From an uncultured Candidatus Saccharibacteria bacterium (lineage in GTDB: Bacteria > Patescibacteriota > UBA1384 > JAGGWG01 > CAZAJM01), in assembly GCA_964485625.1 (NCBI GenBank), contig CAZAJM010000004.1:3349-67348 (forward strand): a stretch of DNA of 64,000 nt. Direction: 5' to 3'. The notes beneath the pieces are model-generated. The model saw only the letters and a list, made by a program, of their open reading frames with translations. It had not been told where the DNA came from and did not search any database. How positions within the stretch are numbered: position 1 is the first letter of the stretch; the number at the start of each line of letters is the position of its first letter. A program made the translations under genes and the position numbers. Below, one piece after another: positions 8,096 through 55,863 of the stretch.

Positions 8096-8183
8096 CCGGA
8101 AGCCTGCCCACCACCCACCTGCCATTGCTGTGCTCAGGCACTAGCGGGCAGGTCACCAGCTTCAGTCTTTGGCAGGCGGGTCC
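8096..8183. repeat. GC-rich hairpin element, copy A (long variant) of a three-member family
   Basis: ~88 bp at ~65% GC: cctgccattgctgtgctcaggcactagcgggcagg...ggcaggcgggtcc. It shares ccgccattgNctgag...caggcgatgNcaggcgg with copies at 26099-26139 and 31242-31282. Confidence 0.6.
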
Positions 8184-24129: not shown

Positions 24130-26049
24130 ATGGCAAAAAAAGAAGCAAATTATGACGCAAGTGCGATAGAAGTACTAAAAGGCCTAGATCCAGTTAGAAA
24201 GAGACCGGGAATGTATATTGGAGGAACTGGTAAACAAGGGCTTCATCACTTAATCTGGGAGGTTATCGATAATTCCATAGATGAAGCTATGGCTGGTTAC
24301 TGTGATAAGATCGTCTTGATTTTAAATAACGATGGTAGTGTTAAAATTACTGATAATGGCAGAGGTATACCTGTGGAGAAGCATAAAGATAGCGGCAAGT
24401 CTGCTCTGGAAACTGTGCTGACTACACTTCATGCAGGTGGTAAGTTTGGCTCTAAAACCTATCAAGTTTCTGGTGGTTTACATGGTGTTGGTGTCTCGGT
24501 AGTTAATGCTCTTTCTAGCAAGCTAGAAGCCAAGGTTTATCGGGATGGTAAAGTCTATCAACAAGAATATTCTAGAGGTAAATCTAAAGGCAAGATGAAA
24601 AGCTCATCTAAAAAAGATAGTGATTTTTTTGGTGATAGTGGTACAGCGATCAGTTTCACTCCTGATGAGAAGATATTTGATGAAGTGGAGTTTGATTTTG
24701 AGACAATTCTTAATCGGCTTCGCCAACAGGCCTATCTAACCAAAGGAGTCAAGATGAAAATTATTGATCGCAGAGCTAAAGAGGAGAGCGAGTATAATTT
24801 CTATTTCCAAGGCGGGGTTAGGTCCTATGTACGATATTTAACTAAATCTAAGGAAAAGATATCTGAGCCAATATATATTGAAGGTGAGATGGATAAAATT
24901 GGTATTGAGATTTCACTAAGATATACTGACGATTTTAATGAGCAGGTAATCACTTTTGCTAATAATATCTATACTGAAAATGGTGGTACTCATCTTACCG
25001 GATTTAGGTCGGCCCTAACTAGGGTGATCAATGACTATATTAAGAAAAACGAGATGGGGGAGAAGGGTTTAAATAAAGTCTCCGGCCAAGATACTAGAGA
25101 GGGTTTAACAGCTGTGATCAATGTTAAGCTAGGTGAGGCCCAGTTTGAAGGTCAGACCAAAGGAAAGCTTGGTAATCCTGAAGTCCGTTCGGCGGTGGAG
25201 TCTCTAACAAATGATGTCCTTTCGACATACTTTGAAGAGAACCCCCAAGAGGCCAATAATATTAGTGAAAGATCCTTTTTGGCGGCTAGGGCTAGGACAG
25301 CAGCCAAGAAGGCAAGAGAGACAGTTATTAGAAAAGGTGCTCTAAGTGGTTTGGCTTTGCCGGGCAAATTAGCTGATTGTTCTTCAAGAAAGCCGGAGGA
25401 TTCTGAAATATTTATTGTCGAGGGTGATTCAGCCGGTGGTTCCAGTAAGCAGGGTAGGGATAGAGGCCATCAAGCGATATTACCTCTTAGGGGTAAGGTT
25501 TTGAATGTTGAGAGGAAACGACTTGATCGCATTCTGGAAAACAATGAATTAAAATCATTGATTTTAGCTCTAGGTATGGGTGTAGGAGAGGAGAAAGATA
25601 TCGAATCTCTAAGATATGATCGAGTGATAATTATGACCGATGCTGATATTGATGGTGCCCATATTGACACTTTGCTGTTAACGTTTTTCTATCGATACTT
25701 TAAAGAATTAATAACTGAAGGCCACCTCTACTTAGCTAAAGCCCCGCTTTACAAGGTAGAGAAAGGGAAAGAGTCAATCTATGCCTATAGTGAAGAAGAG
25801 CGGGAGAAGGCACTAGATAAATTAGGCGAAAATGCAAAGGTCCAGAGATACAAAGGTCTAGGTGAGATGAACCCAGGGCAACTATGGGAGACTACTATGG
25901 ATCCTGAGACTAGAATTCTTAGAAGAGTCAATGTTGAGGATGCTCAGCAGGCAGATCAAGTCTTTTCTACCCTCATGGGTTCTGAGGTTGAGCCAAGAAA
26001 GAGATTTATCCAAACCCATGCCAAGTCTGTAGAAAATCTAGATGTATAG
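24130..26049 (+). CDS. gyrB: DNA gyrase subunit B
   Basis: 639 aa. GHKL ATPase (LHHLIWEVIDNSIDEA, LHAGGKFG), Toprim (EGDSAGGS) and C-terminal tail. Confidence 0.95.
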   Translation: MAKKEANYDASAIEVLKGLDPVRKRPGMYIGGTGKQGLHHLIWEVIDNSIDEAMAGYCDKIVLILNNDGSVKITDNGRGIPVEKHKDSGKSALETVLTTLHAGGKFGSKTYQVSGGLHGVGVSVVNALSSKLEAKVYRDGKVYQQEYSRGKSKGKMKSSSKKDSDFFGDSGTAISFTPDEKIFDEVEFDFETILNRLRQQAYLTKGVKMKIIDRRAKEESEYNFYFQGGVRSYVRYLTKSKEKISEPIYIEGEMDKIGIEISLRYTDDFNEQVITFANNIYTENGGTHLTGFRSALTRVINDYIKKNEMGEKGLNKVSGQDTREGLTAVINVKLGEAQFEGQTKGKLGNPEVRSAVESLTNDVLSTYFEENPQEANNISERSFLAARARTAAKKARETVIRKGALSGLALPGKLADCSSRKPEDSEIFIVEGDSAGGSSKQGRDRGHQAILPLRGKVLNVERKRLDRILENNELKSLILALGMGVGEEKDIESLRYDRVIIMTDADIDGAHIDTLLLTFFYRYFKELITEGHLYLAKAPLYKVEKGKESIYAYSEEEREKALDKLGENAKVQRYKGLGEMNPGQLWETTMDPETRILRRVNVEDAQQADQVFSTLMGSEVEPRKRFIQTHAKSVENLDV

Positions 26050-26136
26050 ACAAAATGAAAGTAAATATATTATTAAAAAACGTATATAAAAGTAGCTTGT
26101 CCGCCATTGTCTGAGACTTCAGGCGATGACAGGCGG
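26049..26136. repeat. GC-rich hairpin element copy B (AT-rich ~50-bp arm plus 41-bp GC hairpin), flanked by 29-bp perfect direct repeats at 26020-26048 and 26137-26165
   Basis: Direct repeat gccaagtctgtagaaaatctagatgtata is the last 9 codons of gyrB. Hairpin: gtccgccattgtctgagacttcaggcgatgacaggcgggcc. Confidence 0.65.
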
Positions 26137-26187
26137 GCCAAGTCTGTAGAAAATCTAGATGTATAAGTAGATTAAAAATAATTAAAT

Positions 26188-29100
26188 ATGGCAAAAAAAT
26201 CAAATAAAGAAAAAGAGATCAAGAAGAAGGTAGATGAGATTGCAAATAAGCTTGAGGAAGTACAGATTGCTGAAGAGATGGAGACGAGCTATTTAGATTA
26301 CTCTATGAGCGTGATTGTCTCCCGTGCCTTGCCGGATGTAAGAGATGGTCTAAAACCTGTTCATAGAAGAATTCTCTATGCAATGAACCAGATTAAGCTA
26401 GGTCACTCAGGTAGATTTAGAAAGTCTGCTACTGTGGTAGGTGAGGTTCTTGGTAAGTATCATCCACATGGTGATACAGCTGTCTATGATAGTCTTGTTC
26501 GTATGGCTCAGGATTTTTCTATGAGATATATGTTGGTTAATGGTCATGGTAATTTTGGCTCAATTGATGGCGATGCAGCAGCGGCTATGAGATATTGCAT
26601 TACCGGAGATAGCCTTATAGCTACCGATTCCGGCTTGATACCAATATGTACTATTTCTGACAAGGAAGAAGAAGATATTAATATTGAAGTGCAATCAAGA
26701 AATATTAAGACAAACAAAGCAACTAAATTTTTTAATTCCGGTGAACACCCAGTGATAAGTGTTGAGACAGAATTGGGATATCAAATTAGTGGTTCTTATA
26801 ATCATCCTTTGCTGTGCTGGGTAAACAAGGGAGGAACTCCCAAACTTGAGTGGAGATTGTTGGAAAACTTAACCGAAGGTGATCATGTTGTTTTGAATAG
26901 AGAGTCAAATTTGTTTTCTAGCAACATTCCAAATTTAACCGAGTATTATTACAGCTCAAGTAAGACGGAGAAAATTGGTATGCCTAAAGAGATGAATTCA
27001 GATTTAGCATTTTTACTAGGAGCTTTAGTTGCAGAAGGGTCTTTCCATCAAGATAAGATTATTTTTAATAATTCTGATAAAGATTTCTATAAGAAAGTTA
27101 AACAAATTATTACTAGTCAATTTAAAGGTATTAAGTTGTATGAAAGAGATATCAAAGGGAACTGTTTAGAGTTAGAAATTTACCATCAAGAAGTTGTTAA
27201 TTTTCTTATTAACATTGGTTTAAATAATGTAAAATCCCATAAAAAAGAGATACCGTTTATTGTTCTTTCATCTCCCAAAGCAATAATTACTTCTTTTTTG
27301 AATGGTTTGTTTGAGGGTGATGGTTCAGTTTTAGCTAAAACTGACAAAAGGCACCAGGGCAAATCTATTGAATTAACTTATAATTCAAAAAGTAAAAAGC
27401 TAATTAAGCAATTAAAGATAATATTGCTCCATTTGGGGATATTAACTACCAATCCTTATCGAGATAAACGTAGTGATTGTTTTAAGTTAATTATTTCCGG
27501 TGTTGAATCGATTAAAAGATATAAAGAGGAAATAGGATTTTTTTCAGAAAAGAAGAAACAAAGACTTGCCGAAGTTGATAATATAAATTCAGAAAGGATG
27601 AGTAAGAATGATTATATTCCCTATTTAAATGAATATTTAAGAGGGAAGTATGATTTTGTGGAAGTAAAAAAGTACAATTTTGACAGATATAATAGATTAG
27701 AAAAAAATCTTTCCAAAATTATCGATAAAATTGATGATAGTGACAAAAGATTACTTGAATCAGTAATAAAAAAACACTACGTTTTTAACAAGATAGCTCA
27801 AATTAAAAAGGAGCAACCGGAAAATGTCTATTCTGTTAAGGTTGATAGTAAGTGCCATTCTTTTGTAGCTAATGGCTTTGTTAACCACAACACTGAGTGC
27901 AAGATGGAGAAGATCTCTTCATATATTCTCAAAGACATAACTATGGATACGGTCGATTTTGTTGATAACTACGATGGATCTATTCAAGAGCCTTCGGTTC
28001 TGCCAACTAGGGTTCCTAGCCTACTTCTAAATGGTTCGCTTGGTATAGCTGTTGGTATGGCGACCAATATCCCTCCCCATAATTTAAACGAACTTATCGA
28101 TGCCTCTATAGCTCTACTAAACGACGACGACTTAGGAGTTGAAGATTTAATGGAATATGTCAAGGGGCCTGATTTTCCTACGGGAGCTCAGATTTATGGT
28201 ATTGATGGTATTAAGCAAGCTTATTCAACGGGTAAGGGCAAGGTTGTTGTGAGGGCAAAAGCCAACATTGAAGAGGGCAAGAAGGGCAAGCACCAGATAG
28301 TAATTACGGAGATTCCATATCAGGTTAATAAGGCGGAGCTAATTAAAAAGATTGCCGATCTGGTTAAAGAAGATCGGGTTAAAGGAATCTCAGACCTCAG
28401 AGATGAGTCAGATAAAGATGGATTAAGAGTCGTGATTGAGCTTAAGAAAAATTCTTTCCCAAAGAAAGTTCTCAATAACCTATACAAGTTTACCCGTCTA
28501 CAGGACGCCTTTCATATTAACATGCTAGCCCTTATTGATGGCATCCAGCCCAGAGTACTAACACTAAAAGAGGCCTTAAAGCAATTTCTAGAGCATAGGC
28601 GAGTAGTTGTTACTAGAAGGTCAGAGTATGAATTAAAGAAAATTGAGGCTAGATTACATATTTTAGAGGGTCTCAAGATTGCCTTAGACAATATTGATAA
28701 GATTATCCAGACCATTAAAAAATCTAGTAACAGAAAAGACGCTAGTAAGAAGTTGGTTAAAAATTTTGATCTTAGTAAAAAACAGGCCGAGGCAATTTTG
28801 GATATGAGACTGTCCCAGCTCTCGGCTCTGGAAAGACAAGAGATAGAAGATGAGTATAAGGCAAAAAAAGAGCGGAAAGAGGAATTGGAAGCGCTTCTAG
28901 CTTCTGATAAGAAGATGAGAGAGAAAATCCAGGAAGAGTTGGAAGAGGTGAAAGAAGAGTTTGGCGATGAGCGAAGAACTAAGATCTACAAGACTGAAGT
29001 GGGTGAGATTGGCAAGGAAGAACTAATTGCTAAGAAGCCAGCTATAATCACTCTGACCAAAGACAACTATATTAAAAGAATGCCTATCAATACATATAAG

Positions 29101-30093
29101 TCTCAGGCAAGAGGCGGTAAAGGTGTGGTCGGTATGACTACTAAAGAAGAAGATGTTGTTGACAGGATGTTGGTGACCAATACTCATTCATCCCTGTTGT
29201 TCTTTACCGATCAAGGCAAGGTATATCAGTCTCCAGTTCATGAGATACCGGAGGCTAGCCGTAGAGCTAAAGGGAACGCTATTGTTAACTTGCTTCAAAT
29301 CAAGCCTAGCGAGAAAGTAACCGGGGTTTTGGATATTGGTGATATTGAGAAGTCCGATGCTAAGTATCTGCTTATGGCTACTCAGGGTGGCAGAGTAAAA
29401 AAGACCAAAATAGAAGACTATCAGGGTATTAGGCAATCCGGTTTAATTGCCATTCGGTTAAAAGATGAAGATAAGCTTAAGTGGGTTAAGCCAACTAGTG
29501 GCAAAGATAATGTTATTTTAGTTTCAGCCAAGGGTAAGTCGATTAGATTTAGTGAAGAAGATGTTCGTCCGATGGCTAGGAATACCCAGGGCGTAAAAGG
29601 AATTGACTTAAACAAAGATGACCAGTTAGTCGGCATGGATATTATTGCTTCCAAGCAGCAGAAGGCTGATAAGCAGATAAAAGACAAAAAGAAAGAGCTA
29701 GAGAAAGAGAAGGGCATGGACGAAGAAGATGCCAGAGCTCTAGCCGAAGAGACAGGCGAGGCCAAGAAAGGTCTTTCAGATGATCTGCTGGTAGTTATGA
29801 GTAAGGGTTACGGCAAGAGATCTAAGCTAAAGGACTATCCTTTGCAGAACAGAGGTGGCAAAGGAGTTAAATCGGCCAACGTTAAAGATAAAACAGGAGA
29901 TATAGTTCAGATGATGATAGTACCGCCTAGAGGCAAGGGCGATCTAGCCATGGTCTCGGCCAAAGGCAAAGTAATTAGAATACCATTAACTTCTGCGAAA
30001 AAAATGGGCCGCAATACTCAAGGAGTAAGACTGATGAAGTTAAACCAGGGAGATAAAGTAGCTTCAGTCACCTATATGGCTAAGGGCAAGTAA
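26188..30093 (+). CDS. gyrA: DNA gyrase subunit A interrupted by an intein (extein 869 aa plus intein 432 aa)
   Basis: 1301 aa. The extein sequence AAMRY / [29 protein letters not shown] ... [18 protein letters not shown] is colinear with GyrA around the catalytic Tyr. The insert between them has intein termini. Confidence 0.95.
26596..27891 (+). mobile_element. Intein in GyrA, inserted immediately after the catalytic tyrosine (gyrA-a site), with LAGLIDADG homing-endonuclease domain
   Basis: Starts with Cys ([13 protein letters not shown], block A) and ends VANGFVNHN followed by the +1 Thr. Two LAGLIDADG motifs are present, [14 protein letters not shown] and [15 protein letters not shown]. 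In-frame, 1296 nt. Confidence 0.9.
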
Positions 30094-30120
30094 AATACCA
30101 CTTTAAGGACTAATATAGAG

Positions 30121-30150
30121 AAGCCCTGTCAATTGACGGGGCTTTTTCTT
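30121..30150 (+). terminator. Rho-independent terminator after gyrA
   Basis: aaGCCCtGTCaattGACgGGGCtttttctt. Confidence 0.6.
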
Positions 30151-30219
30151 GCCAAAACAAGTTTTATGTGATATAGATAGACCAGACTTGTACCAAACGA
30201 TGCAGCAGGAGTGATCACC

Positions 30220-31062
30220 ATGGCAGCAATAAAACAATATTATAGTCGACGGACTCCATTGGGAGAGATGCTTAAAGAGGCTAGAGATGAGGCTGAGTTG
30301 ACTCAAATTGATGTTGCTGATAGATTGGCTGAGGATTATGGTAAGTCAATTGGAGTACAGGTGATTAGAGATTTGGAATATCTTGGGCCGAGAAATGAAG
30401 ATCATCTTCAGTTGATAAAGCTTATAGACCAAGTCTATGGTTCAAATGTTGCTGAAGAGATTGAGAAGTATGGTTTAGGTTACCGATTGCCATGTGGGGA
30501 TGATTTTGTAAATGCAATTGAATACTCGGGTCTAAGCGGCAACAAATTATCCCAAGAGATCGCTTCACAGCTTAACTATTCTGTATCATCTATGCCAACA
30601 TACATTCGAATCTGGAGGGTTGTCGGTCTGCCAAATATCCGCGTGGCTGAGGAGATCGATGATATTCTTGGTACGGATTTTGCAGATAATTTTGAGGAGA
30701 GCGAGAGAAAGTCTGCAAGGATATTAGAAAGAGCAAGGGCTAAGAGAAAGTCGGATGATTCAGGTTCTAAAACAAGCCAAGATCCTGAAGTGGTTGAAGT
30801 GAATACTGATGAGGAGCGAGTTGAGTTCGACGCAGATGAGCTTTTTGCCGATATGGAATTTGATTTAGAGATGTTAGTCAGATCTTGGAGGGTTGAAGGT
30901 TTCGAGCCTCATATTGAACTAGTGGCGGAAGAGATTGGGGTTTTGGTTAATATGAAGGATGAGTTGTTGGATAAGCTGATTGAGGTGATTGGTATGAGAG
31001 AAGAGATGATTGGCTTAAGAGATGAGATTAGGGCAAAACTTGAAGAGAGAATAAGCAATTAA
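30220..31062 (+). CDS. Hypothetical protein with two XRE-like HTH segments and an acidic C-terminal tail
   Basis: ATG at 30220 sits 9 nt after AGGAG; the GTG at 30211 proposed by the ORF track is less likely. LGEMLKEARDEAELTQIDVADRL is HTH-like. Confidence 0.5.
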   Translation: MAAIKQYYSRRTPLGEMLKEARDEAELTQIDVADRLAEDYGKSIGVQVIRDLEYLGPRNEDHLQLIKLIDQVYGSNVAEEIEKYGLGYRLPCGDDFVNAIEYSGLSGNKLSQEIASQLNYSVSSMPTYIRIWRVVGLPNIRVAEEIDDILGTDFADNFEESERKSARILERARAKRKSDDSGSKTSQDPEVVEVNTDEERVEFDADELFADMEFDLEMLVRSWRVEGFEPHIELVAEEIGVLVNMKDELLDKLIEVIGMREEMIGLRDEIRAKLEERISN

Positions 31063-31241
31063 AGCGACAGTTAATATATATCTTAATAGCAACACGCATT
31101 GTTATTGACTCATATTTTCTGTCGTTTTTTCTTTTTGATTAACTTTTGACTTTTAACCAGAAATAAGGTAGAGTTTAAATTACAAAACAATTTTTTTGAT
31201 TAATGTTTTTTAAATATGGCTATAAAGCTAACTGATCTGGC

Positions 31242-31332
31242 CCTGCCCGCCATTGGCTGAGCCGCAGGCGATGGCAGGCGAGTTAATCATAATTATCCAC
31301 TATAACCAATAAAAGCATTTAAGCAATATAAA
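31242..31332. repeat. GC-rich hairpin element copy C (41-bp GC hairpin plus AT-rich ~50-bp arm, inverted relative to copy B), flanked by 26-bp direct repeats at 31216-31241 and 31333-31358
   Basis: Direct repeat atggctat[a/t]aagctaactgatctggc is the first 9 codons of infB, 25/26 identical. Hairpin: cctgcccgccattggctgagccgcaggcgatggcaggcgag. Confidence 0.65.
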
Positions 31333-33303
31333 ATGGCTATTAAGCTAACTGATCTGGCAGATAAGCTAAAATTAACTAAACTTCAACTTAAGCGAGAGCT
31401 TAAGAATCTTGATATTGAAGGTCTTGATCCAAAGAAGACCTTTTTTGAACGTCAGATTGCAGATCAGATAATTGAAGAGCTTAGAGAGGATAAGGGAGAA
31501 AAAGAAGAAGTAAAGAAAGCTCCAGAAAAACCCAAAGTTAGGGAAGATGAAAAATCCATTGAAATAGGTGAGACAATTACAGTTAAGAATTTTGCCTCTA
31601 AACTTAATTTGCCGGTGACTGATGTGATTAAGGAATTAATGCGTAATGGTGTAGCAGCAACAATTAATGAGAAGATTGATTTTGATACAGCAAGTATTAT
31701 TGCTTCAGACTTTGGTTACTCTGCTGCTCAAGAGCAAGAGGCCAAAGGTATTTTAGAAGAAGACTGGCAGGGCAAGAAACTAGAAGAGAGGCCTCCTGTT
31801 GTTACTATCTTAGGTCATGTCGATCATGGCAAGACCACCTTATTAGATAGAATCAGAGAGAAGAATGTCGCAGGTGGCGAGTCCGGTGGTATTACTCAGC
31901 ATATTGGTGCTTACCAGGCAGAGGTTAAAGTAGAGGGAGATAAACGCAAAATTACCTTCATCGATACTCCCGGCCATAAGGCCTTTACGGCTATGAGGGC
32001 TCAGGGAGCCAAGGTAACCGATATTGCTGTTCTTATTATTGCTGCCGATGATTCGGTTCAGCCTCAAACCAAAGAGGCAATAGATCATATTAAGCAAGCC
32101 GGTGTGCCGATAGTGGTAGCGATTAACAAGATTGATTTGCCCGGTGCTGATGTCAATAAAGTTAAGCAAGATTTAATTGAACTTGGTTTGAATCCAGAAG
32201 ATCTTGGCGGTACTACCCCAACTGTCGAAGTTTCAGCCGAGAAAGGGACTAATATTGATAGTCTTTTGGAGATGATTATTCTAACTGCTGACTTACAAGA
32301 CCTAAAGGCCCCTCTTGATATCCAGCCTAAGGGAGTAGTGATTGAGAGCCATAAGCACAAAGGGGCCGGGGTATTAGCTACTGTCTTGATTAAGCAGGGA
32401 ATTTTAGAGCAAGGTAAGCCAGTCTTGGCAGGAACCATTGTTGGTACCGCTAGAATTCTAGAAGATGAGAATATGGATCGTATCGATAAAGCATACCCCA
32501 GTCAGCCAGTAAGAGTGGTTGGTTTCGATGAGGTGCCGGGAGTTGGCACGATTGTAGAGCAGCTTGGTGATATTAAAGAGGCTCGAAAAGTTGCTCAAAA
32601 AAGGATTGAGGAGGCAAGAAAAGAGGGCAAAACTACAGGTACAGGTTTGGCAGAAGCATCAAAGTCTATTAAGAAAGGTGAGAGTAAGCAGTTGAAGATA
32701 ATCCTTAAGGCCGATGTGGCCGGTTCTCTAGAAGCCCTAAGACAGTCAATTAATGCCCTAGGAGATAAAGAGACGAGTGTGGAAATTATTAGAGCCGGGG
32801 TGGGTCCGGTAAATGAGTCTGACATTGAAATGGCAACTGCTTCAGACGCGGTAATAATTTCATTTAGAATGCCAGTTGATAAAGCCGCAGGTAGTTTGGC
32901 TAAGCAGAACAATATTGAGATTAGTGAGTATGATGTTATCTACAAACTTATCGATGACCTACAAGCCGCTCTAGAAGGTATGCTCGAGCCAACTATTACC
33001 AAAGAGAAGCAGGGTGAGGCAAAAGTATTAAAGGTCTTCTTCTCCAGCAAGAATAGGACGATTGTTGGTGGCAGAATGCTCGAGGGTGAGGCAAATAAGG
33101 CTTTGGATGTTGAGATCCAACGAGGTGAAGATATTATCGCTAAAGGCAAGATTAATACTTTGCAGAGAGAACAGAAAGAAGTAGATAGTGTTAAAAAAGG
33201 TCAGGAGTTTGGTATTGGTTTAGAAACTGACGGCAAGATTAAGCCAGATGATAGATTGCTCTTTTATAGTTTGAAAAAAGAAGTAAGGAAGCTTCCCAAG
33301 TAG
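31333..33303 (+). CDS. infB: Translation initiation factor IF-2 (short form)
   Basis: 656 aa. G domain GHVDHGKTTLLD, DTPGH, NKID, followed by beta-barrel domains. Confidence 0.95.
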   Translation: MAIKLTDLADKLKLTKLQLKRELKNLDIEGLDPKKTFFERQIADQIIEELREDKGEKEEVKKAPEKPKVREDEKSIEIGETITVKNFASKLNLPVTDVIKELMRNGVAATINEKIDFDTASIIASDFGYSAAQEQEAKGILEEDWQGKKLEERPPVVTILGHVDHGKTTLLDRIREKNVAGGESGGITQHIGAYQAEVKVEGDKRKITFIDTPGHKAFTAMRAQGAKVTDIAVLIIAADDSVQPQTKEAIDHIKQAGVPIVVAINKIDLPGADVNKVKQDLIELGLNPEDLGGTTPTVEVSAEKGTNIDSLLEMIILTADLQDLKAPLDIQPKGVVIESHKHKGAGVLATVLIKQGILEQGKPVLAGTIVGTARILEDENMDRIDKAYPSQPVRVVGFDEVPGVGTIVEQLGDIKEARKVAQKRIEEARKEGKTTGTGLAEASKSIKKGESKQLKIILKADVAGSLEALRQSINALGDKETSVEIIRAGVGPVNESDIEMATASDAVIISFRMPVDKAAGSLAKQNNIEISEYDVIYKLIDDLQAALEGMLEPTITKEKQGEAKVLKVFFSSKNRTIVGGRMLEGEANKALDVEIQRGEDIIAKGKINTLQREQKEVDSVKKGQEFGIGLETDGKIKPDDRLLFYSLKKEVRKLPK

Positions 33304-35241: not shown

Positions 35242-36054
35242 ATTCTGATAGTTGAAGCAAACTTCAGGTTCCCACTAAGCATGCAGATTTCCCGCACTTA
35301 GCGAGTCCTTAATGCATTTTGTTTTTTAGATTAATAATTTTATCTAGTCCTTTCTCCGTGTAATGCTCCTTGTTTTCAATTAATTCCATAATTCTGGAAA
35401 ATAATTCAAAATCATTTCTTTTGGAGTTACTTCTTAAAGGATTTTCTCTAAAAAACTTGATGATTTTTTTGACGTCTTCAAGTCTTGAGGCTTGATATCG
35501 GTAGCACGTAGAATGATTTTTTCTACGATCTCTTTGAATGTATACAATGCCAAACCCTAAATATTCTTTTATCTGATAGAGCACCTGTTTGTCAAATGCT
35601 TTTAGCTTGATAACAAACATAGGCACAACTCTATTTCTGGTGCCATCGTCTTTTTTCTTTTTTACATAGACGTGAAAACACCCTTCTCCATCAGTTAAAC
35701 CGACTAAATAATCATCAGTAAGCATTAGGTTTTGTCCTTCCCTCGGCAAGTTTTGCCGGGTACTATGACTCAGCTGACTTCTTATGTTATTCATTTGCTT
35801 CTAGTATAACATAAGATCTCCCTGGATTAAATAAATTACTATTCCACACATCCCACGAATTTCTATAATATATTTTTACTTCCCTAACACACACCGGTTA
35901 GGTCGTAAAAAATGGTTTTAATGAAGTAATGATGGGCTATGTTTTGCCGTTGAGTCCTACAGTCAGTATCTCACGATAATTGACCTACTCTTGGCTATAT
36001 AAAAGGATTTTAACCTTTTAGCAAAATATCCTGCCAGGCGTCTTTATTAATTTT
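35242..36054 (-). mobile_element. 16S intervening sequence 1 at the decoding-centre helix (E. coli ~1398/1399), encoding a LAGLIDADG endonuclease
   Basis: Exon sequence ...gacgggcgg stops at 35241 and resumes tgtgtacaag at 36055. Boundaries are +/- a few nt. No terminal G is evident, so the intron class is undetermined. Confidence 0.7.
35309..35794 (-). CDS. LAGLIDADG homing endonuclease (single-motif type) inside 16S insertion 1
   Basis: 161 aa with LVGLTDGEGCFHVYV. Confidence 0.8.
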   Translation of the reverse strand: MNNIRSQLSHSTRQNLPREGQNLMLTDDYLVGLTDGEGCFHVYVKKKKDDGTRNRVVPMFVIKLKAFDKQVLYQIKEYLGFGIVYIQRDRRKNHSTCYRYQASRLEDVKKIIKFFRENPLRSNSKRNDFELFSRIMELIENKEHYTEKGLDKIINLKNKMH

Positions 36055-36381
36055 TGTGTACAAGACTCGAGAACATATTCACCGTAATGTGGCTGACTTA
36101 CGGTTACTAGCGATTCCATCTTCATGGAGTCGAATTTCAGACTCCAATCCGTACTGGGGTACATTTTAAGGGATTAGCTCCGTCTCGCGACTTGGCGAAA
36201 CCCATTGTATGTACCATTGTAGCGCGTGTGTCGCCCAAGACATAAGGGTCATGCTGATTTGGCGTCATCTCCACCTTCCTCCGTGTTGACCACGGCAGTC
36301 CTCTATGACAGATTTAACATAGAGCAGAGGTTGCGCTCGTTCAGGGACTTAACCCGACGTTTCACAACACGAGCTGACGAC

Positions 36382-37243
36382 CATGTTATTCCATTATTGC
36401 TAATGGCATGGACTATACCATCTTCCTTCATGAGGAAGTCAATGATTAATAGCAGTTACAGCCTGCTATTAGGACTACTAGACCTTTAGTAATAGTCACA
36501 AGTCTCTAAGGGCAATTTTATCTGATATTTTAATTGAGTATTTTTTCATTTCACTTATAGCTTTTTTTGCTGTATCTATTGTGAAATATAGACAATACGT
36601 TCCAGCAGATTTGTAATAATAGACTCTTGTATCAAGATTTAGCTTTTTTAACAAACCCTGATCAGTTTTAGTCTCTTGCTCATTTCCATAAACAATCCTC
36701 ATGTCATTTACCAGATTGTTACTTATTGAGCCGTCACCATCAAATCTTCCGCTGACATAAGAATATATGTCAGTCTTATTGTCTAGATTACGTATCAGTT
36801 TCTTAGATTTTTTGAAATTATATAACAGTTTTCTGTCATTTACATAAATTTGATAAGCAACCAATTTTCCGTTTTTATTTGGATAAATTTTATAGTTACG
36901 TATTTTTTCAGCTAACAGATTGTCAATATTTCTGTTTAAAGGCCGATATATTCTTAATTTTATTCTTTCGTTAGAATAATTAGCCTTTTTGAAAAAATTA
37001 TAAAACTTCCAAATGAGTTTAACGTTACAGTTGGTTAAGCCTACACTACTGGTTCTGTGGTATCCATCTGCACACCAAAGCCCAATAATATATTTATGTT
37101 TCAGTAAATCATAATTGCCCACGGAATTACCTTATTAATACTATTACTATTGTAACATGAATCGTATTAATTTGCTATAAGGTTTCTCCGTTTTGAATTG
37201 ATTTTTCCACTAGAAATTACTTTCTAGGGGGTCATTATTAAAT
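36382..37243 (-). mobile_element. 16S intervening sequence 2 (E. coli ~1052-1056 region), encoding a LAGLIDADG endonuclease
   Basis: Exon ...gagctgacgac stops at ~36381 and resumes aaccatgcaacacctgt at ~37244. The catg on both sides makes the junction ambiguous by 4 nt. Confidence 0.65.
36496..37122 (-). CDS. LAGLIDADG homing endonuclease (double-motif) inside 16S insertion 2
   Basis: 208 aa with IIGLWCADGYH and SGRFDGDGSI. Confidence 0.8.
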   Translation of the reverse strand: MGNYDLLKHKYIIGLWCADGYHRTSSVGLTNCNVKLIWKFYNFFKKANYSNERIKLRIYRPLNRNIDNLLAEKIRNYKIYPNKNGKLVAYQIYVNDRKLLYNFKKSKKLIRNLDNKTDIYSYVSGRFDGDGSISNNLVNDMRIVYGNEQETKTDQGLLKKLNLDTRVYYYKSAGTYCLYFTIDTAKKAISEMKKYSIKISDKIALRDL

Positions 37244-37520
37244 AACCATGCAACACCTGTCATCTGGCTCCCAAAGGGCACCTCCGATTTTCATCAGAGT
37301 TCCAGAGATGTCAAGTCTTGGTAAGGTTCTTCGCTTATTATCGAATTAAACCACACGCTCCACCGCTTGTGCGAGTCCCCGTCAATTCCTTTGAGTTTCA
37401 ATCTTGCGATCGTACTTCCCAGGCGGATCACTTAACGCGTTAGCTTCGAGACCAAACGGGGTCGATGCCGCCTAATCTCTAGTGATCATCGTTTACAGCT
37501 TTGACTACAGGGGTCTAAAT

Positions 37521-38535
37521 ATTTGCTCACATTGCTGTGAGGATTGGACTATATCATTTTCTAAAAATTTTCCATTTATTTTTTCTACTGCTAACAATTT
37601 TTTCAATTGTTGAATGAGAAAAATTTGTTAAATGGCTTATTCTAGAAATCCAGTTTTGTTGGCGTTTATGATCTTGATAAAGCAGTAAAATTTTATACAA
37701 CATACTTATTTGTTGTATGTTCGGCGCAATTATTGTAAAAAACCTTTTAAGGGCTTTTTCTGAATACAGGTTTAACCTGATTCTTTTATTTACAATTCCA
37801 ATTTTAGTTTCAATATTCCATTTTACTTGTAAATACTCTTTCAATAACTGAACTTCATTTTTTGAAAAACTATCTGTGCAAAAAACTCCTTTTCTAGCGT
37901 TGCCTATTATTGAACCGTCGTCTAGCCACCATACAGCTAAAGATAATTTGTCTAGATTATCTAGCCATTCTTTACTTATGGTTTTTACGTTGTTTGGATT
38001 CGTTATTTTCCAAATCTTAGTTAATTCAGGCAAAGCTCTACTTTGAAATCTTAGTTTTTTGTATCCGTAACTGCTATTGTCATTGCTTTCATCTTGTTCC
38101 CATACTGCATTGTTTGATGAAATAACCGACAATTTGGCAGCTTTCCAAAAAAAGTATTCTTGTTGTTTCTTTGAATGTCTATATGAGAATCTGGCATTTT
38201 TATACCCATTATGTATTTTTAAACTGCCATCTCCTAATAAAGATCCAAATATTATTGCTTTAGCTTGATCTGAATTAAATAATTTATCCATACTTGTTAG
38301 TATTATATCATAACAAACTATTTAATTCTCAGACACCATAGTCTCTACAGGGCCCGATATCATTTGCATAATATCAGACTCCCTCGGAATTGCCTTAAAA
38401 CACATGCTGTAGTAATCATGTTTTAAATTAAGGTTTCTCCGATAAAACTGAATGCACACTTTAGCATTGCTGCTAAAGGGGACACCTTTTGTTACTATTT
38501 ATTGAATAACGTCTATGAGACGTCAACGCGGTAAC
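37521..38535 (-). mobile_element. 16S intervening sequence 3 near the 790 loop (E. coli ~790-800), encoding a LAGLIDADG endonuclease
   Basis: Exon ...gactacaggggtctaaat stops at ~37520 and resumes gggatttatctaatccctttcgctacc at ~38536. Both flanks carry GGGTATCTAAT-like sequence, so the boundaries are +/- 15 nt. Confidence 0.6.
37554..38291 (-). CDS. LAGLIDADG homing endonuclease (double-motif) inside 16S insertion 3
   Basis: 245 aa with IIFGSLLGDGSL and WWLDDGSI. Confidence 0.8.
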   Translation of the reverse strand: MDKLFNSDQAKAIIFGSLLGDGSLKIHNGYKNARFSYRHSKKQQEYFFWKAAKLSVISSNNAVWEQDESNDNSSYGYKKLRFQSRALPELTKIWKITNPNNVKTISKEWLDNLDKLSLAVWWLDDGSIIGNARKGVFCTDSFSKNEVQLLKEYLQVKWNIETKIGIVNKRIRLNLYSEKALKRFFTIIAPNIQQISMLYKILLLYQDHKRQQNWISRISHLTNFSHSTIEKIVSSRKNKWKIFRK

Positions 38536-38955
38536 GGGATTTATCTAATCCCTTTCGCTACCAAAGCTTTCGTGCCTCAGCGTCAGAACAGACCTAGCAA
38601 ATTGCCTTCGCTTTCGGTGTTCCCTGTGATATCAACGGATTTCACCCCTACACCACAGGTTCCATTTGCCTCTGTCTGCCTCAATTTTGATAGTTTCCTT
38701 GGCGCTTTTCCTGTTAGGCAGGAAAATTTAACCAAAGACTTATCAAAACGCCTACGCACCCTTCACGCCCAATGATTCCGGATAACGCTCGCCCTCTATG
38801 TATTACCGCGACTGCTGGCACATAGTTAGTCAGGGCTGATAGCATGGTAAGTTCAAGATTTATTCCCATGCATTAGAACTTTACAATCCGAAGACCGTCT
38901 TCGTTCATGCGGTGTCGCTGCATCACCCGTTAGGGCATTGTGCAAGATTCCCCAT

Positions 38956-39001
<46 letters not shown>

Positions 39002-39605
39002 GGGGTCACGCTCTCACGTCCCCTAGCCGTCATAGCCTTGGTAAGCTTTTACCTTACCAACAAGCTGATAGCGAGCAGGTTCCTCTCAAAGCGCCGGAGC
39101 ATTTACTGCTAAGAAAATTAATTCATAGCAGACTATCAGGAATTGTTCCCAGTTTCCCGGGGTTATTCCTGTCTTTGAGGTAGATACCTACCTGTTACTC
39201 ACCCGTCCGCCGAGCAACCGAAGTTGCTCTCGACTTGCATATGTTAGGCACACCGCCAGCGTTAATCCTGAGCCGGGATCAAACTCTCCATAAAAATTGT
39301 CTTCTTTTTATCTTTATTTTTAACTCGTCTTAAAAAAGAAAGGGAAGACGAGTATTCTTGTCCGAGTCTCAGATCTTAACACTATTTGTTAAAGTACTAT
39401 TTAAAAAGCCTCTAACGAGAGGCGGTTAAAGCTACCAATATTTGTAATATTTTCTACAAATGCCTCCCAATACTTATTACTTTCTAAATTATAGTCTTAG
39501 TCTAAACAATCTAATTGCTGTTGTCAAGGGTATTGATATGAGTAGTTAATAGAACAAAAAAAGCTCGAATATGTAACAATTTATATTATATGTTAATATT
39601 ACGAG

Positions 39606-44530: not shown

Positions 44531-44557
44531 GTTTTGAGCTAAAATCGGAAGTCGGAC
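44531..44557. terminator. 27-bp palindromic hairpin; a second copy of the same palindrome is at 8234-8260
   Basis: aaaatcggaagtcggacttccgatttt just after the stop of the Clp-like gene. The other copy is aaaatcggaagtccgacttccgatttt followed by gtgttttt. Confidence 0.55.
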
Positions 44558-44584
44558 TTCCGATTTTGTTGGCTTTGGTATGGC

Positions 44585-50046: not shown

Positions 50047-50119
50047 GGGGTCGTAGCTCAATTGGTAGAGCGCCTCGCTTGCACCGAGGAGGTAGCGGGT
50101 TCGAATCCCGCCGACTCCA
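50047..50119 (+). tRNA. tRNA-Ala (anticodon TGC), CCA not encoded
   Basis: GGGGTCGTAGCTCAATTGGTAGAGCGCCTCGCTTGCACCGAGGAGGTAGCGGGTTCGAATCCCGCCGACTCCA. G3:U70 is present. Anticodon loop CTTGCAC. Confidence 0.9.
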
Positions 50120-50253
50120 CTTTTTTATTAAAAAAAGAGGCGGGAATGAAGAACCCGCTAGCCTGTCAGATAAAACTAAAATATATTTTAAAATATCTCG
50201 GCTTAGATGAGCATTAACTAAGACTAAGCCAATGGAAGAAGGGCCTTGGGCCC

Positions 50254-55843: not shown

Positions 55844-55863
55844 AGCGAAATTCCTTGTCAGGT

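What the first reader, a model, noticed from the sequence alone, without database searches (positions are those of the whole stretch)
31216..31358. Second copy of the GC-hairpin element, in the infB leader, flanked by a 26-bp duplication of the infB start that creates an upstream mini-ORF mimicking the infB N-terminus
atggctataaagctaactgatctggc (31216-31241) and atggctattaagctaactgatctggc (31333-31358) bracket 91 bp. That stretch is a GC hairpin followed by an AT-rich arm, in the opposite orientation to the gyrB copy. The upstream duplicate keeps the ATG and reads MAIKLTDLALPAIG*, running into the hairpin. The real infB thus sits behind a 14-codon uORF that shares its first 9 codons, followed by a stable GC hairpin. 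Two independent insertions with near-identical geometry support a mobile or recombination-driven element. The uORF plus hairpin could also act as a translational or transcriptional attenuator for infB. The total insert length (88 vs 91 bp) and repeat length (29 vs 26 bp) are similar in both copies.
Basis: seen in the sequence. Interest (0 to 1): 0.7.

Follow-up and report, generated by a model that had tools for sequence, protein, structure and literature searches.

The report
Selfish GC hairpin inside infB's start
A 41-base GC-rich hairpin from an apparently undescribed family of selfish DNA, found mostly in candidate-phyla-radiation (CPR) bacteria, has landed inside the first nine codons of the essential gene infB; the gene survives because a second copy of its start sits behind the insert, and the old start is left as a fossil mini-gene.

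Summary
Two 26-nt copies of the infB start (25/26 identical) lie 117 nt apart and bracket a 41-nt GC hairpin and a 50-nt AT-rich stretch. The upstream copy reads MAIKLTDLALPAIG*. The gyrB 3' end has the same layout and the same 117-nt period.

One detail is wrong. Both hairpins lie on the + strand in the same orientation; only the AT arm changes side.

The hairpin belongs to a widespread 41-42-nt family, mostly in CPR genomes, with covarying stems. About 13 copies sit in frame, always 42 nt, inside housekeeping genes. Other copies lie in 23S rRNA insertions, between genes, or nested in each other. The pattern scan of IMG/VR, BLAST of phage and plasmid collections, Rfam scans of both hairpin loci and four literature searches found nothing.

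Six relatives keep the gyrA-infB neighbourhood and the infB promoter and start, and have neither hairpin nor duplication there; the two whose loci reach gyrB lack the gyrB insert too.

The upstream copy keeps the native promoter and leader, so it is the displaced original start. The working start sits behind a new leader. A third case (L037) has two copies that differ only at synonymous sites. This matches the layout of mobile cassettes that replace a gene end.

The uORF is best read as a by-product, not an evolved attenuator. How the duplication arose, and why both periods are 117 nt, is unresolved.

The parts
31146..31174 (+). Native infB promoter-like site (TTGACT, 17 nt, TAGAGT), upstream of the fossil start
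   Evidence: Promoter scan. The same TTGACTTTnnACC...TAnAnT motif precedes infB in six relatives.
31175..31215 (+). Native infB leader (41 nt, AU-rich, no Shine-Dalgarno core)
   Evidence: By eye it resembles the L028 leader in sequence and matches it in length (41 vs 37 nt); no formal alignment was made.
31216..31241 (+). Upstream repeat copy: the displaced ('fossil') native infB start, codons 1-9
   Evidence: It is contiguous with the native promoter and leader, and it carries ATA at codon 3 like the closest relatives L028 and L080.
31216..31260 (+). 14-codon uORF MAIKLTDLALPAIG*, stopping at a TGA inside the hairpin
31242..31282 (+). GC-rich hairpin element (41-nt variant), member of the CPR-wide family
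   Evidence: Covariance model, 67.4 bits, E = 8e-17. Near-identical copies occur in many CPR metagenome-assembled genomes (MAGs). Stem covariation. Folds.
31283..31332 (+). Unique AT-rich spacer, now the immediate leader of the working infB start
   Evidence: No similarity to the gyrB arm, to the native leader, or to any sequence held. No promoter called inside it.
31333..31358 (+). Downstream repeat copy: the working infB start
   Evidence: It opens the 656-aa IF-2 ORF (Pfam domains listed).
31333..33303 (+). infB (IF-2, 656 aa)
26020..26048 (+). Working 3' end of gyrB (last 9 codons plus TA of the TAG stop); proximal repeat copy
26049..26095 (+). Unique 47-nt AT-rich spacer after the gyrB stop
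26096..26137 (+). Hairpin element at gyrB, a different sequence variant, in the same orientation as the infB copy
   Evidence: Covariance model, 66.8 bits on the + strand; alignment A1.
26137..26165 (+). Displaced copy of the gyrB 3' end (TAA stop, as in L028), contiguous with the gyrA leader
8103..8180 (.). Degenerate pair of hairpin elements, one nested in the other, in the intergenic region after ORF 6792-8084. No flanking duplication.
   Evidence: Covariance-model hits at 8114-8152 (27.4 and 24.2 bits); sequence; flank test z = -0.1.

Best explanation
WHAT IT IS. The infB-leader structure is a lineage-specific insertion scar. It was made by a member of a widespread selfish DNA family, found mostly in CPR genomes and apparently undescribed: a 41-42-nt GC-rich imperfect palindrome.

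The element sits after nucleotide 26 of the ancestral infB ORF, in the one reading frame that contains a stop codon. On its own this would kill an essential gene. The insertion is tolerated because the inserted DNA also carries, or created, a second copy of the first 26 nt of infB behind a new 50-nt AU-rich leader.

HOW THE LOCUS NOW WORKS.
- The upstream copy is the displaced original start. It is still attached to the native promoter and translation-initiation region.
- It is therefore most likely transcribed and translated into a 14-residue peptide that ends at a TGA inside the hairpin.
- IF-2 itself is made by separate initiation at the second ATG, 72 nt further on, in an unstructured SD-less leader of the kind most genes here use.
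- The uORF and hairpin are by-products of the insertion, not an evolved infB attenuator. They must still impose some cost or modulation on infB expression.

SHOWN.
- Family membership and stem covariation.
- In-frame copies in other genes.
- Empty sites in relatives.
- The native promoter and leader lie upstream of the first copy.
- The same layout occurs at gyrB and in L037.

INFERRED.
- Translation of the uORF and independent initiation at the second ATG.
- The way the duplication arose.

ORIGIN OF THE DUPLICATION. I favour a recombinational cassette that restores the gene end, probability about 0.4. In this model the element arrives together with a replacement gene end and displaces the native one. 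Known parallels are fungal mitochondrial mORF cassettes and integrative elements that mimic the end of their target gene. The alternative is a one-step transposition-like insertion of an 88-bp unit with a 29-bp target duplication, probability about 0.3.

The confidence given (0.72) is for the core claims: a selfish-element insertion, a fossil start, and a uORF that is a by-product. It does not apply to the choice between the two origins.
For: FAMILY.
- The same 41-42-nt sequence occurs in Zambryskibacteria, Paceibacterota (at least 7 copies in one MAG), Saccharibacteria, a Parcubacteria-group MAG and others.
- The 21 variants are 99.3% paired in the proposed stems, with compensatory changes at 3 pairs. 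None of 500 shuffles reached the observed covariation score.
- 13 copies lie inside long ORFs: PyrD, LeuRS, DinB, MnmA, CysRS, RsmA (twice), CCA-adding enzyme, ScpA, IMPDH and three unassigned ORFs. I named these proteins from their sequences without a database search. All 13 are 42 nt and none is in the TGA frame.

LINEAGE-SPECIFIC.
- Six relatives with InfB 66-78% identical have the conserved promoter and a single infB start, with no hairpin.
- The two relatives whose gyrB-gyrA junction is covered (L028, L032) also lack the gyrB insert.

FOSSIL START.
- The promoter TTGACT-17-TAGAGT and a 41-nt leader that resembles the L028 leader in sequence and length precede the first copy.

SHARED LAYOUT.
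- In three independent cases (infB 5' end, gyrB 3' end, L037 kinase 3' end) the displaced copy abuts the hairpin and stays with the native flank.
- In all three the working copy lies on the gene-body side behind a unique spacer of 11-50 nt, whatever the polarity of the hairpin.
- Each duplication ends within 0-3 nt of the ORF boundary.
- In L037 the two copies differ at 7 positions in 39 nt. All 7 are synonymous third-position changes, and the stops differ (TAG vs TAA). Relatives L084 and L085 have empty sites with TAA.
- In the window, the displaced copies also carry the states seen in relatives (ATA, TAA).

WHY A PATCH IS NEEDED.
- The infB hairpin is in the frame that contains the TGA stop.
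- At gyrB, read-through from the gene body into the hairpin and the displaced copy would replace the last 9 residues.
- At L037, the 41-nt hairpin plus one extra G is in frame with the displaced copy, so there the patch was not strictly needed.
- Near-terminus copies that are in frame and 42 nt (L004, L019, L025) have no duplication.

NOT A REGULATOR.
- No terminator is called. The leader fold has z = -0.08 and the hairpin does not pair with the second start in the centroid fold.
- 31 of 41 genes lack an SD core.

PRECEDENT.
- Gene core, inserted C-terminus, mobile element, displaced native C-terminus is the documented layout of mORF cassettes. In the Allomyces atp6 case the native copy is identical to that of the sister species, and in the Glomus cases it is 91-98% identical to the close relative (PMC3630166).
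Against: - The two window repeats are almost identical (29/29 and 25/26), while the adjacent spacers match nothing, including the native flanks. A donor allele close enough to give identical coding sequence should also have had a similar flank.
- Both window loci have exactly the same 117-nt period, possibly 29 + 88 at both. A recombinational patch does not predict this; it looks like a molecular ruler.
- No nuclease, integrase or transposase gene is associated with the hairpin in the loci examined.
- Most family members are bare 42-nt inserts with no duplication. Whatever made the duplications is either rare or a separate process.
- The L037 evidence for two functional alleles comes from another genome and may not transfer to the window.
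- Translation of the uORF and of infB was not measured.
Confidence: 0.72

Rival explanations
1. One-step transposition-like insertion. A defined 88-bp unit (41-nt hairpin plus 47-nt arm) is inserted at cuts staggered by 29 bp, and fill-in duplicates the target. Only insertions whose duplication spans a gene end survive in a gene-dense genome.
For: - Near-identical repeats at both window loci.
- Identical period of 117 nt. With the infB repeat read as 29 nt (27/29), both loci have the same 29 + 88 geometry.
- The spacers are foreign to the local sequence, as expected for inserted DNA.
- From my own knowledge: long, variable target duplications are described for IS1634/IS1549-type elements, and 14-37-bp duplications for casposases and Cas1-Cas2.
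Against: - The arm lies 5' of the hairpin at gyrB and 3' of it at infB, while the hairpin keeps the same orientation. One asymmetric unit cannot give both.
- The two arms are unrelated, and the two hairpins are different variants (about 8 differences).
- All other family members examined are bare 42-nt inserts with no long duplication.
- All three duplications end within 0-3 nt of the ORF boundary, which is unlikely for random staggered cuts (my rough estimate is below 0.01).
- The 7 of 7 synonymous differences in L037 do not fit neutral drift of a dead copy.
Confidence: 0.3
2. Dedicated regulatory leader. The uORF that mimics the infB N-terminus, together with the stable hairpin, is an evolved translational or transcriptional attenuator that tunes IF-2 synthesis.
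For: - The uORF keeps the ancestral initiation region, and its stop lies inside the hairpin. Ribosome traffic on the uORF would therefore open the hairpin.
- The hairpin is locally stable: -24.7 kcal/mol as RNA.
Against: - The arrangement is absent from all six relatives, which share the promoter and a single start.
- No U-tract terminator is called.
- The hairpin lies 50 nt upstream of the working ATG and does not pair with it in the centroid fold. The leader fold is no better than shuffles.
- The same geometry occurs at the 3' end of gyrB, where no leader is involved.
- The hairpin is a generic insert in unrelated ORFs.
Confidence: 0.07
3. Decayed scars of two larger integrative elements (integrase-mediated attL/attR). 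Each element had integrated into a gene end and carried a mimic of that end, and almost all of each element was later deleted.
For: - Direct repeats bounded by the gene end are the classic att signature.
- The window also holds a textbook example. The last 20 nt of tRNA-Ala (50101-50120) are repeated 154 nt downstream (50255-50274), with an AT-rich stretch and then a short GC palindrome abutting the displaced copy.
- From my own knowledge: replacement of a 5' end by an integrated island is known for dusA, and replacement of a 3' end for icd (phage 21/e14).
Against: - Two independent decay processes would have to leave exactly the same 88-91-nt remnant.
- No integrase or element genes remain.
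- The hairpin lies on the P side of the core at gyrB and on the P' side at infB, in the same orientation. This does not fit one attP architecture.
- The hairpin family mostly occurs with no repeats at all.
Confidence: 0.12
4. Assembly artefact: strain variants collapsed in series by a de Bruijn assembler.
For: The repeat lengths (26-29 nt) are close to commonly used k-mer sizes.
Against: - The identical infB structure is present in the window and in two Logan assemblies from different runs.
- A third example with diverged copies exists in an unrelated JGI metagenome (L037).
Confidence: 0.02

Closest known systems
Fungal mitochondrial mORF (mobile endonuclease ORF) cassettes with an inserted C-terminus and a displaced native C*-terminus (Allomyces atp6; Glomus atp6, atp9, cox2, nad3; PMC3630166)
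   Same: - The order is gene core, re-supplied terminus, mobile insert, displaced native terminus.
- The displaced copy resembles relatives.
- In L037 the inserted copy differs only at synonymous sites.
- The duplication is bounded by the gene end.
   Different: - No endonuclease ORF is present. The insert is only 52-91 nt, a hairpin plus spacer.
- The window copies are nearly identical rather than diverged.
- The layout also occurs at a 5' end (infB).
- The host is a bacterial chromosome.
Rickettsia palindromic elements (RPE), 'selfish DNA in protein-coding genes' (from my own knowledge)
   Same: - A repeated palindromic element inserted in frame into housekeeping genes of a reduced, AT-rich genome, tolerated as an extra peptide loop.
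- Copies also occur between genes and in RNA genes.
   Different: - The sequence is unrelated and much shorter (42 nt, against roughly 100-150 nt).
- It is shared nearly unchanged across lineages that are classified as separate phyla-level groups.
- RPEs are not known to come with duplicated gene ends.
Yeast mitochondrial GC clusters and Magnusiomyces 'byp' elements (from my own knowledge)
   Same: - Short GC-rich hairpin-forming mobile inserts in a very AT-rich genome.
- Found between genes, in rRNA and in coding sequence.
- Optional between strains.
   Different: - Organellar, with unrelated sequence.
- GC clusters make only short AT target duplications.
- byps need translational bypassing, whereas every in-ORF copy here is 42 nt and open.
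Site-specific integration with a gene-end mimic in attP: tRNA-gene islands, phage 21/e14 in icd, dusA islands (from my own knowledge)
   Same: - Direct repeats that run exactly to the gene end.
- The working gene uses the copy supplied by the element, and the native end is left as a pseudo-copy.
- Both 3' and 5' ends can be targeted.
- The window has a tRNA-Ala example.
   Different: - No integrase and no element body.
- Three different targets share only the hairpin.
- The hairpin's side relative to the core is not constant.
REP/REPIN elements mobilised by RAYT (Y1 HUH) transposases, and IS200/IS605-derived palindromic elements (from my own knowledge)
   Same: - An imperfect palindrome of about 40 nt with conserved bulges.
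- Precise insertion without a target duplication for most copies.
- Occasional doublets and nested copies (L012; window 8103-8180).
   Different: - REPs are extragenic and species-specific.
- No GTAG-type head.
- No RAYT or TnpA gene was seen in the loci examined.
- No gene-end duplications are described for REPs.
Phage T4 gene 60 bypass insert with the mobA cassette (bioRxiv 10.1101/2022.08.31.505936, seen in the result list; otherwise from my own knowledge)
   Same: - A short mobile insert in a topoisomerase or other essential gene.
- A stop codon and a hairpin lie at the start of the insert, with matching codons on both sides.
   Different: - No bypass is needed here. The working infB copy has its own ATG, and gyrB ends at a normal stop before the insert.
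- The gap would be 117 nt, far beyond known hops.

Membership tests
CPR GC-hairpin element family (defined here; covariance model R1) | Match to the 42-position covariance model, with the three stems | tested here: met
   31242-31282 scores 67.4 bits, E = 8e-17, on the + strand. The stems are 99.3% paired across 21 variants, with 3 covarying pairs.
CPR GC-hairpin element family (defined here; covariance model R1) | Insertion polymorphism: present here and absent at the same site in relatives | tested here: met
   Six relatives have a single infB start and no hairpin. The gyrB site is empty in L028 and L032.
Rho-independent terminator / transcriptional attenuator | GC-rich stem followed directly by a U-tract | tested here: not met
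   No terminator-like site in 30900-31500. The hairpin is followed by GUUAAUCAUAAU.
Leader-peptide (uORF) attenuation of a downstream gene | The uORF and its alternative structures are conserved in related leaders | tested here: not met
   Absent from six related infB leaders. The leader fold has z = -0.08, and the hairpin does not pair with the second start.
Leader-peptide (uORF) attenuation of a downstream gene | The uORF is translated and its translation changes downstream expression | not testable with these tools
   Needs ribosome profiling or reporter fusions. The uORF does retain the ancestral initiation region.
MITE (non-autonomous transposon) | Terminal inverted repeats plus a fixed-length target-site duplication at every copy | tested here: not met
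   The element is a palindrome, but flank tests on 23-25 distinct copies found a duplication at only 3 loci.
REP/REPIN-RAYT | Extragenic location and an associated RAYT (Y1 transposase) gene | tested here: not met
   13 copies lie inside ORFs. No Y1 transposase was seen, but neighbouring ORFs were only listed and read by eye; whole genomes were not searched.
mORF / homing-endonuclease terminus-replacement cassette | Re-supplied terminus in frame with the gene core, and the displaced native terminus beyond the insert | tested here: met
   Seen at infB, gyrB and the L037 kinase. The displaced copies carry the states seen in relatives.
mORF / homing-endonuclease terminus-replacement cassette | An endonuclease ORF between the two terminus copies | tested here: not met
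   Only 88-91 nt (52 nt in L037) lie between the copies, and no ORF fits.
Integrase-mediated island (attL/attR with a gene-end mimic) | Direct repeats that run to the gene end | tested here: met
   The repeats end within 0-3 nt of the start or stop codon at infB, gyrB and L037.
Integrase-mediated island (attL/attR with a gene-end mimic) | An integrase gene and an element body between the repeats | tested here: not met
   Nothing but the hairpin and spacer lies between the repeats. The neighbouring ORF 30211-31062 has only a weak HTH match.
Any Rfam family | Covariance-model match | tested here: not met
   At gathering threshold only rRNA and tRNA matches appear in the window. Permissive scans of both hairpin loci gave only chance-level hits.
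Integron attC site | R''/R' core sites (RYYYAAC ... GTTRRRY) flanking the imperfect palindrome | tested here: not met
   The hairpin ends are CCTGCCC... and ...GGCAGGCGGG. No GTTRRRY or RYYYAAC is visible in alignment A1.

The most novel reading that the evidence does not exclude
The hairpin is the cis-element of an undescribed DNA-mobility system found mostly in CPR genomes. When it enters the first or last roughly 30 nt of a gene, it lays down a fixed-length unit (period 117 nt; a 29-nt copy of the gene end plus 88 nt of hairpin and filler) that rebuilds the interrupted end. This would be an ORF-less counterpart of endonuclease or integrase cassettes, with its own molecular ruler, and it would allow invasion of essential genes such as gyrB and infB.
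Probability: 0.15. Interest if true: 0.85.

Novelty: new variant of a known kind. Interest (0 to 1): 0.62.

Why it matters
- It would add a selfish palindromic element to the CPR (Patescibacteria). It is short, GC-rich, shared almost unchanged across groups classified as separate phyla, and tolerated as a 14-residue loop in core enzymes. This parallels Rickettsia RPEs and yeast mitochondrial GC clusters. It would be a ready marker of horizontal DNA flow among these uncultured, reduced genomes.
- The copies at gene ends show how a small insert can enter essential genes without killing the cell. The end is supplied a second time, and the native end, with its promoter or downstream flank, is left as a fossil.
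- For annotation, this produces spurious uORFs and pseudo-ends, shifted start sites and extra loops in conserved proteins.
- For infB, about 117 nt, a translated decoy start and a stable hairpin now lie between promoter and gene. That is a natural experiment on SD-less initiation in CPR bacteria.
- The equal 117-nt period and the origin of the spacers are unexplained. They may point to an unknown insertion mechanism.

Tried and rejected
- Rfam: gathering-threshold scan of the whole window and permissive scans of both hairpin loci. Only rRNA, tRNA and chance-level hits.
- Hairpin pattern in IMG/VR viral contigs: 0 hits. BLAST of the consensus against INPHARED phages and PLSDB plasmids: no match.
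- Literature searches for a CPR palindromic or MITE-like element: nothing relevant.
- Are the two AT arms the same element, inverted? No similarity in either orientation (p = 0.92 and 0.69).
- Are the arms copies of the native flanks, as a longer tandem duplication would give? No (p = 0.75 and 0.56).
- Source of the arms anywhere in the window or the fetched loci: none.
- Was the central 5.1-kb segment between the two hairpins (gyrA, ORF283) imported as a block? GyrA exteins are 91-96% identical to L028 and GyrB is 92%, so there is no sign of foreign origin. Sliding nucleotide identity shows no break near either insert.
- A second, empty-site allele of this organism through an exact GyrB look-up: not on record.
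- Nuclease, integrase or transposase genes beside intergenic hairpin copies: none stood out when the neighbouring ORFs were listed and read by eye; they were not scanned against a profile library. ORF283 gave only a weak HTH match.
- Protein-database search with the four hairpin-encoded peptides, to count host proteins. No information gained.
- Translational bypass and a crRNA-like 'hairpin + guide' reading were considered and set aside. Both genes have complete normal ends without them, and the repeat lies on different sides of the hairpin at the two loci.


Full report
OBSERVATION

The sequence is as described. ATGGCTATAAAGCTAACTGATCTGGC (31216-31241) and ATGGCTATTAAGCTAACTGATCTGGC (31333-31358) are 25/26 identical and lie 117 nt apart. 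The single difference, ATA/ATT, is a synonymous Ile change. Between them lie a GC-rich hairpin (31242-31282) and a 50-nt AT-rich stretch (31283-31332). The upstream copy reads MAIKLTDLALPAIG*, and its TGA falls in the 5' arm of the hairpin. The downstream copy opens the 656-aa IF-2 ORF, 31333-33303.

The gyrB 3' end carries the sister structure. A 29-nt exact repeat sits at 26020-26048 and 26137-26165, again with a 117-nt period, around a 47-nt AT-rich stretch and a hairpin at 26096-26137.

Neither repeat can be chance.
- Flank-against-flank alignments give z = 11.9 and 15.6.
- Only five local direct-repeat families of at least 16 nt within 400 nt exist in the 64 kb.
- The infB structure is not an assembly artefact. 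It is identical in two Logan assemblies from different runs.

One part of the description is wrong. The two hairpins are not inverted relative to each other. A covariance model of the element scores both on the + strand (67.4 and 66.8 bits), against 33.7 and 27.4 bits on the - strand. Only the side on which the AT-rich stretch lies differs.

WHAT THE HAIRPIN IS

A pattern built from the bases shared by the two window copies was scanned over GTDB species genomes and JGI metagenomes. It recovered near-identical 41-42-nt copies. The consensus is CCTGCCCGCCATTGGCTGAGCCTGCAGGCGATGGCAGGCGGG.

The copies come from low-GC genomes labelled as follows:
- Zambryskibacteria;
- Paceibacterota, with at least seven copies in one MAG;
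- Saccharibacteria;
- the Parcubacteria group;
- one MAG labelled Actinomycetota.

The remaining hits were partial matches in GC-rich genomes and look like chance.

Twenty-one distinct variants align without trouble. The three-stem hairpin they imply is 99.3% paired. Compensatory changes occur at three pairs (C-G to U-A, U-A to C-G, G-C to U-A or C-G), and none of 500 shuffles reached the observed covariation score. The invariant columns are partly fixed by the search pattern, so conservation alone proves little. The covariation lies mostly in the pattern's wildcard position and in columns outside the pattern.

Thirteen copies lie inside long open reading frames. From the sequences, which I named by eye without a database search, these look like PyrD, LeuRS, DinB, MnmA, CysRS, RsmA (two copies in one gene), a CCA-adding enzyme, ScpA and IMPDH; three further ORFs (in L014, L018 and L025) I could not assign. 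Every one of these copies is 42 nt. They occur in either orientation, and none is in the single frame that contains TGA. The most frequent reading is the Pro/Gly/Ser-rich ARLPSPAGSANGGQ.

Other copies lie elsewhere:
- in an insertion of 23S rRNA (L006, L021);
- between genes;
- in tandem or nested inside one another (L012; window 8103-8180).

For these copies no flanking duplication was found at nucleotide or peptide level.

The element gave no hit in IMG/VR (exact-pattern scan), INPHARED phages or PLSDB plasmids. The window-wide Rfam scan at gathering threshold found only rRNA and tRNA, and permissive scans of the two hairpin loci gave only chance-level hits. Four literature searches found nothing relevant.

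Taken together, this is a selfish palindromic element of the same general kind as Rickettsia RPEs or yeast mitochondrial GC clusters. As far as I could check it has not been described.

The two window copies are different variants (about 8 differences). Each is closer to copies in other lineages than to the other window copy. They are therefore independent arrivals.

WHAT HAPPENED AT infB

Six relatives (InfB 66-78% identical) were fetched: L028, L032 and L080-L083. In five of them gyrA lies directly upstream of infB; L082 has two small uncharacterised ORFs there instead.
- All six have the promoter motif TTGACTTTnnACC, 17 nt, TAnAnT.
- All have a leader of 10-38 nt and a single ATGGCnnTnAAA start, with no hairpin and no duplication.
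- The gyrB-gyrA junction, covered in L028 and L032, also has no hairpin and no duplication.

In the window, that promoter (31146-31174) and a 41-nt leader that resembles the L028 leader in sequence and length precede the first copy. The first copy is therefore the original infB start in its original place. It also carries ATA at codon 3, like the two closest relatives.

The hairpin follows nucleotide 26 in the stop-containing frame. A bare insertion there would abolish IF-2. The gene survives because a second copy of nucleotides 1-26 follows 91 nt later, behind the AT-rich stretch, and continues into the intact ORF.

At gyrB the logic is mirrored.
- The working 3' end (stop TAG) is followed by the AT-rich stretch, then the hairpin.
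- After the hairpin comes a displaced copy of the last nine codons, with the stop TAA as in L028. This copy is contiguous with the gyrA leader.

A THIRD EXAMPLE AND THE COMMON RULE

Among roughly 24 distinct hairpin loci, only one other shows a duplication. It is L037, from a Kaiserbacteria-like metagenome contig.

There a histidine-kinase gene ends ...GSQFYVELPEAK-TAG. After 11 nt comes the hairpin, and then a second ...GSQFYVELPEAK-TAA followed by the native-looking terminator. The two 39-nt copies differ at seven positions, all of them synonymous third-position changes. Two relatives (83% identical) have a single end with TAA and no hairpin. Neutral decay of a dead copy would not give seven of seven synonymous differences. 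Both copies look like ends of working alleles.

Across the three cases the same rule holds.
- The displaced copy directly abuts the hairpin and stays with the native flank.
- The working copy lies on the gene-body side behind a unique spacer (50, 47 or 11 nt).
- The duplication ends within 0-3 nt of the start or stop codon.
- The displaced copy can lie on either side of the hairpin: 5' of it at infB and L037, 3' of it at gyrB.

Copies near a gene end that are 42 nt and in frame (L004 LeuRS, L019 RsmA, L025) have no duplication. Read-through at the three duplication-bearing sites would give different results:
- at infB it is blocked by the TGA in the hairpin;
- at gyrB it would replace the last nine residues;
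- in L037 the 41-nt hairpin plus one extra G is in frame with the displaced copy, so a simple in-frame state could have existed there first.

HOW THE DUPLICATION AROSE (INFERENCE)

Two models remain open.

(a) A recombinational cassette that restores the gene end. The hairpin arrives together with a replacement terminus, as in fungal mitochondrial mORF cassettes (gene core, inserted C-terminus, endonuclease ORF, displaced native C*-terminus; PMC3630166). Integrative elements whose attP mimics the end of the target gene work the same way (tRNA genes, icd, dusA; my own knowledge).
- This explains why the duplications stop at ORF boundaries.
- It explains why the patch always lies on the gene-body side whatever the hairpin polarity.
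- It explains why ordinary family members have no duplication.
- It explains why the L037 copies differ only at synonymous sites.
- It does not explain why the window copies are almost identical while their spacers match nothing, not the native flanks, each other, or any held sequence.
- It does not explain the shared 117-nt period.

(b) A one-step transposition-like insertion with a long staggered cut. If the infB repeat is read as 29 nt (27/29), both window loci become 29-nt duplication + 88-nt insert (41 + 47).
- This regularity suggests a molecular ruler.
- This model needs the arm to lie on either side of a hairpin that keeps its orientation.
- It needs two unrelated arms.
- It needs three boundary coincidences.
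- It needs a special explanation for L037.

I put (a) at about 0.4 and (b) at about 0.3. The remainder goes to decayed integrase scars and unknown mechanisms.

The window also contains a classic gene-end duplication of the integrase type. The last 20 nt of tRNA-Ala are repeated 154 nt downstream, with an AT-rich stretch and then a short GC palindrome abutting the displaced copy. This shows that insertions which mimic a gene end do occur in this genome. I did not follow it further.

FUNCTIONAL CONSEQUENCE AT infB

Transcription from the native promoter now runs through the fossil start, the hairpin and the spacer before reaching infB. No promoter is called in the spacer and no terminator anywhere in the region.

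The fossil ATG keeps the complete ancestral initiation region. Only 10 of 41 genes in the window have a Shine-Dalgarno core, so an SD-less AU-rich leader is the norm here. The 14-codon uORF is therefore very probably translated, and it terminates inside the hairpin.

The working ATG lies 72 nt downstream in an AU-rich, weakly structured stretch. In the centroid fold the hairpin does not pair with it. The whole leader folds no better than shuffles, z = -0.08. Occlusion of the infB start is therefore not predicted.

Nothing indicates an evolved attenuator. The arrangement is absent from relatives, it is mirrored at a 3' end, and it is built from a generic selfish element. It must nevertheless divert some ribosomes and lengthen the leader. 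Whether that matters is an experimental question.

COMPARISON WITH KNOWN SYSTEMS, AND NOVELTY

By behaviour, the hairpin family resembles RPEs, mitochondrial GC clusters and REP-like palindromes. By sequence it belongs to none of them. It also fails the defining features tested for MITEs (no constant target duplication), REP/RAYT (it occurs inside genes and no RAYT was seen), attC sites (no R boxes) and intrinsic terminators (no U-tract).

The gene-end layout matches mORF and integrase cassettes in the order of its parts. It lacks any enzyme gene, and the whole insert is under 100 nt.

I class the finding as a new variant of a known kind. The points of real interest are:
- near-identity of the element across lineages classified as separate phyla;
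- invasion of essential genes through re-supplied ends;
- the unexplained 117-nt regularity.

LIMITS
- Only 64 kb of this genome was available.
- The nearest relatives are about 78% identical at the nucleotide level, too distant to detect short imported tracts.
- The mobilising enzyme is unknown.
- The attempt to count host proteins through the hairpin-encoded peptides failed.
- No expression data were available.

Noticed in passing
window 50047-50274: The last 20 nt of tRNA-Ala(TGC) (50101-50120, TCGAATCCCGCCGACTCCAC) are repeated exactly 154 nt downstream (50255-50274). The second copy is followed by CA. Between the copies lie an AT-rich stretch, a small GCGGG...CCCGC hairpin and a GGGCC-TT-GGGCCC palindrome that abuts the displaced copy. 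This is a classic att-like scar with the same order of parts as the gyrB insert.
   Followed up: partly
window 26188-30093 (intein at about 26599-27891): gyrA is 1301 aa because it carries an intein with a LAGLIDADG endonuclease (Pfam Intein_splicing and LAGLIDADG_3). Relatives L028 and L032 have intein-less gyrA of 868 and 861 aa.
   Followed up: partly
window 30211-31062: A 283-aa ORF with only a weak HTH match lies between gyrA and the infB promoter, preceded by a terminator-like hairpin at about 30120-30150. In relatives gyrA is followed directly by the infB promoter, so this is a further lineage-specific insertion in the same 5-kb stretch.
   Followed up: partly
window 36057-39294 (- strand) and 53377-58579 (+ strand): The 16S rRNA gene is split by large insertions that carry LAGLIDADG ORFs (for example 35309-35794). 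The 23S match spans 3347 nt for a 2925-nt model. A 59-nt repeat (55952 and 57865, 85% identical) lies in and after the 23S gene. This is typical of CPR rRNA operons.
   Followed up: no
window 26055-26114: The gyrB spacer opens a 19-codon ORF (MKVNILLKNVYKSSLSAIV*) that ends at the same hairpin TGA, in the same frame as the infB uORF. L028 has a real 70-aa Zn-ribbon ORF at the equivalent position after gyrB. The spacer could be the remnant of a small gene.
   Followed up: no
window 8233-8262 and 44540-44569: A near-identical 30-nt perfect palindrome (TAAAATCGGAAGTCSGACTTCCGATTTTGT) occurs at two distant intergenic sites. It looks like a bidirectional terminator or a second small repeat family.
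   Followed up: no
L012 3412-3495 and about 6604-6685 (minus strand); L019 5156-5197 and 5774-5815: One Saccharibacteria locus has two hairpin elements in direct tandem and, elsewhere, one element inserted precisely (42 nt, no duplication) inside another. One Paceibacterota rsmA gene carries two in-frame copies 618 nt apart.
   Followed up: partly
L068 versus L001, L058 and L063: These contigs share the same left flank and hairpin, but L068 continues with a different right flank immediately after the element. Either the hairpin is a recombination breakpoint or it causes chimeric assembly.
   Followed up: no
L010, L016, L023, L036, L054: In a 40-42% GC MAG labelled Actinomycetota, which has ORFs that look like selenocysteine-pathway genes, the 41-nt variant sits inside a longer repeated element (...TCGACCTTG-hairpin-CTCGAA...ATTCTCG...). 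It often lies at contig ends, which suggests a larger multi-copy repeat that carries the hairpin.
   Followed up: partly
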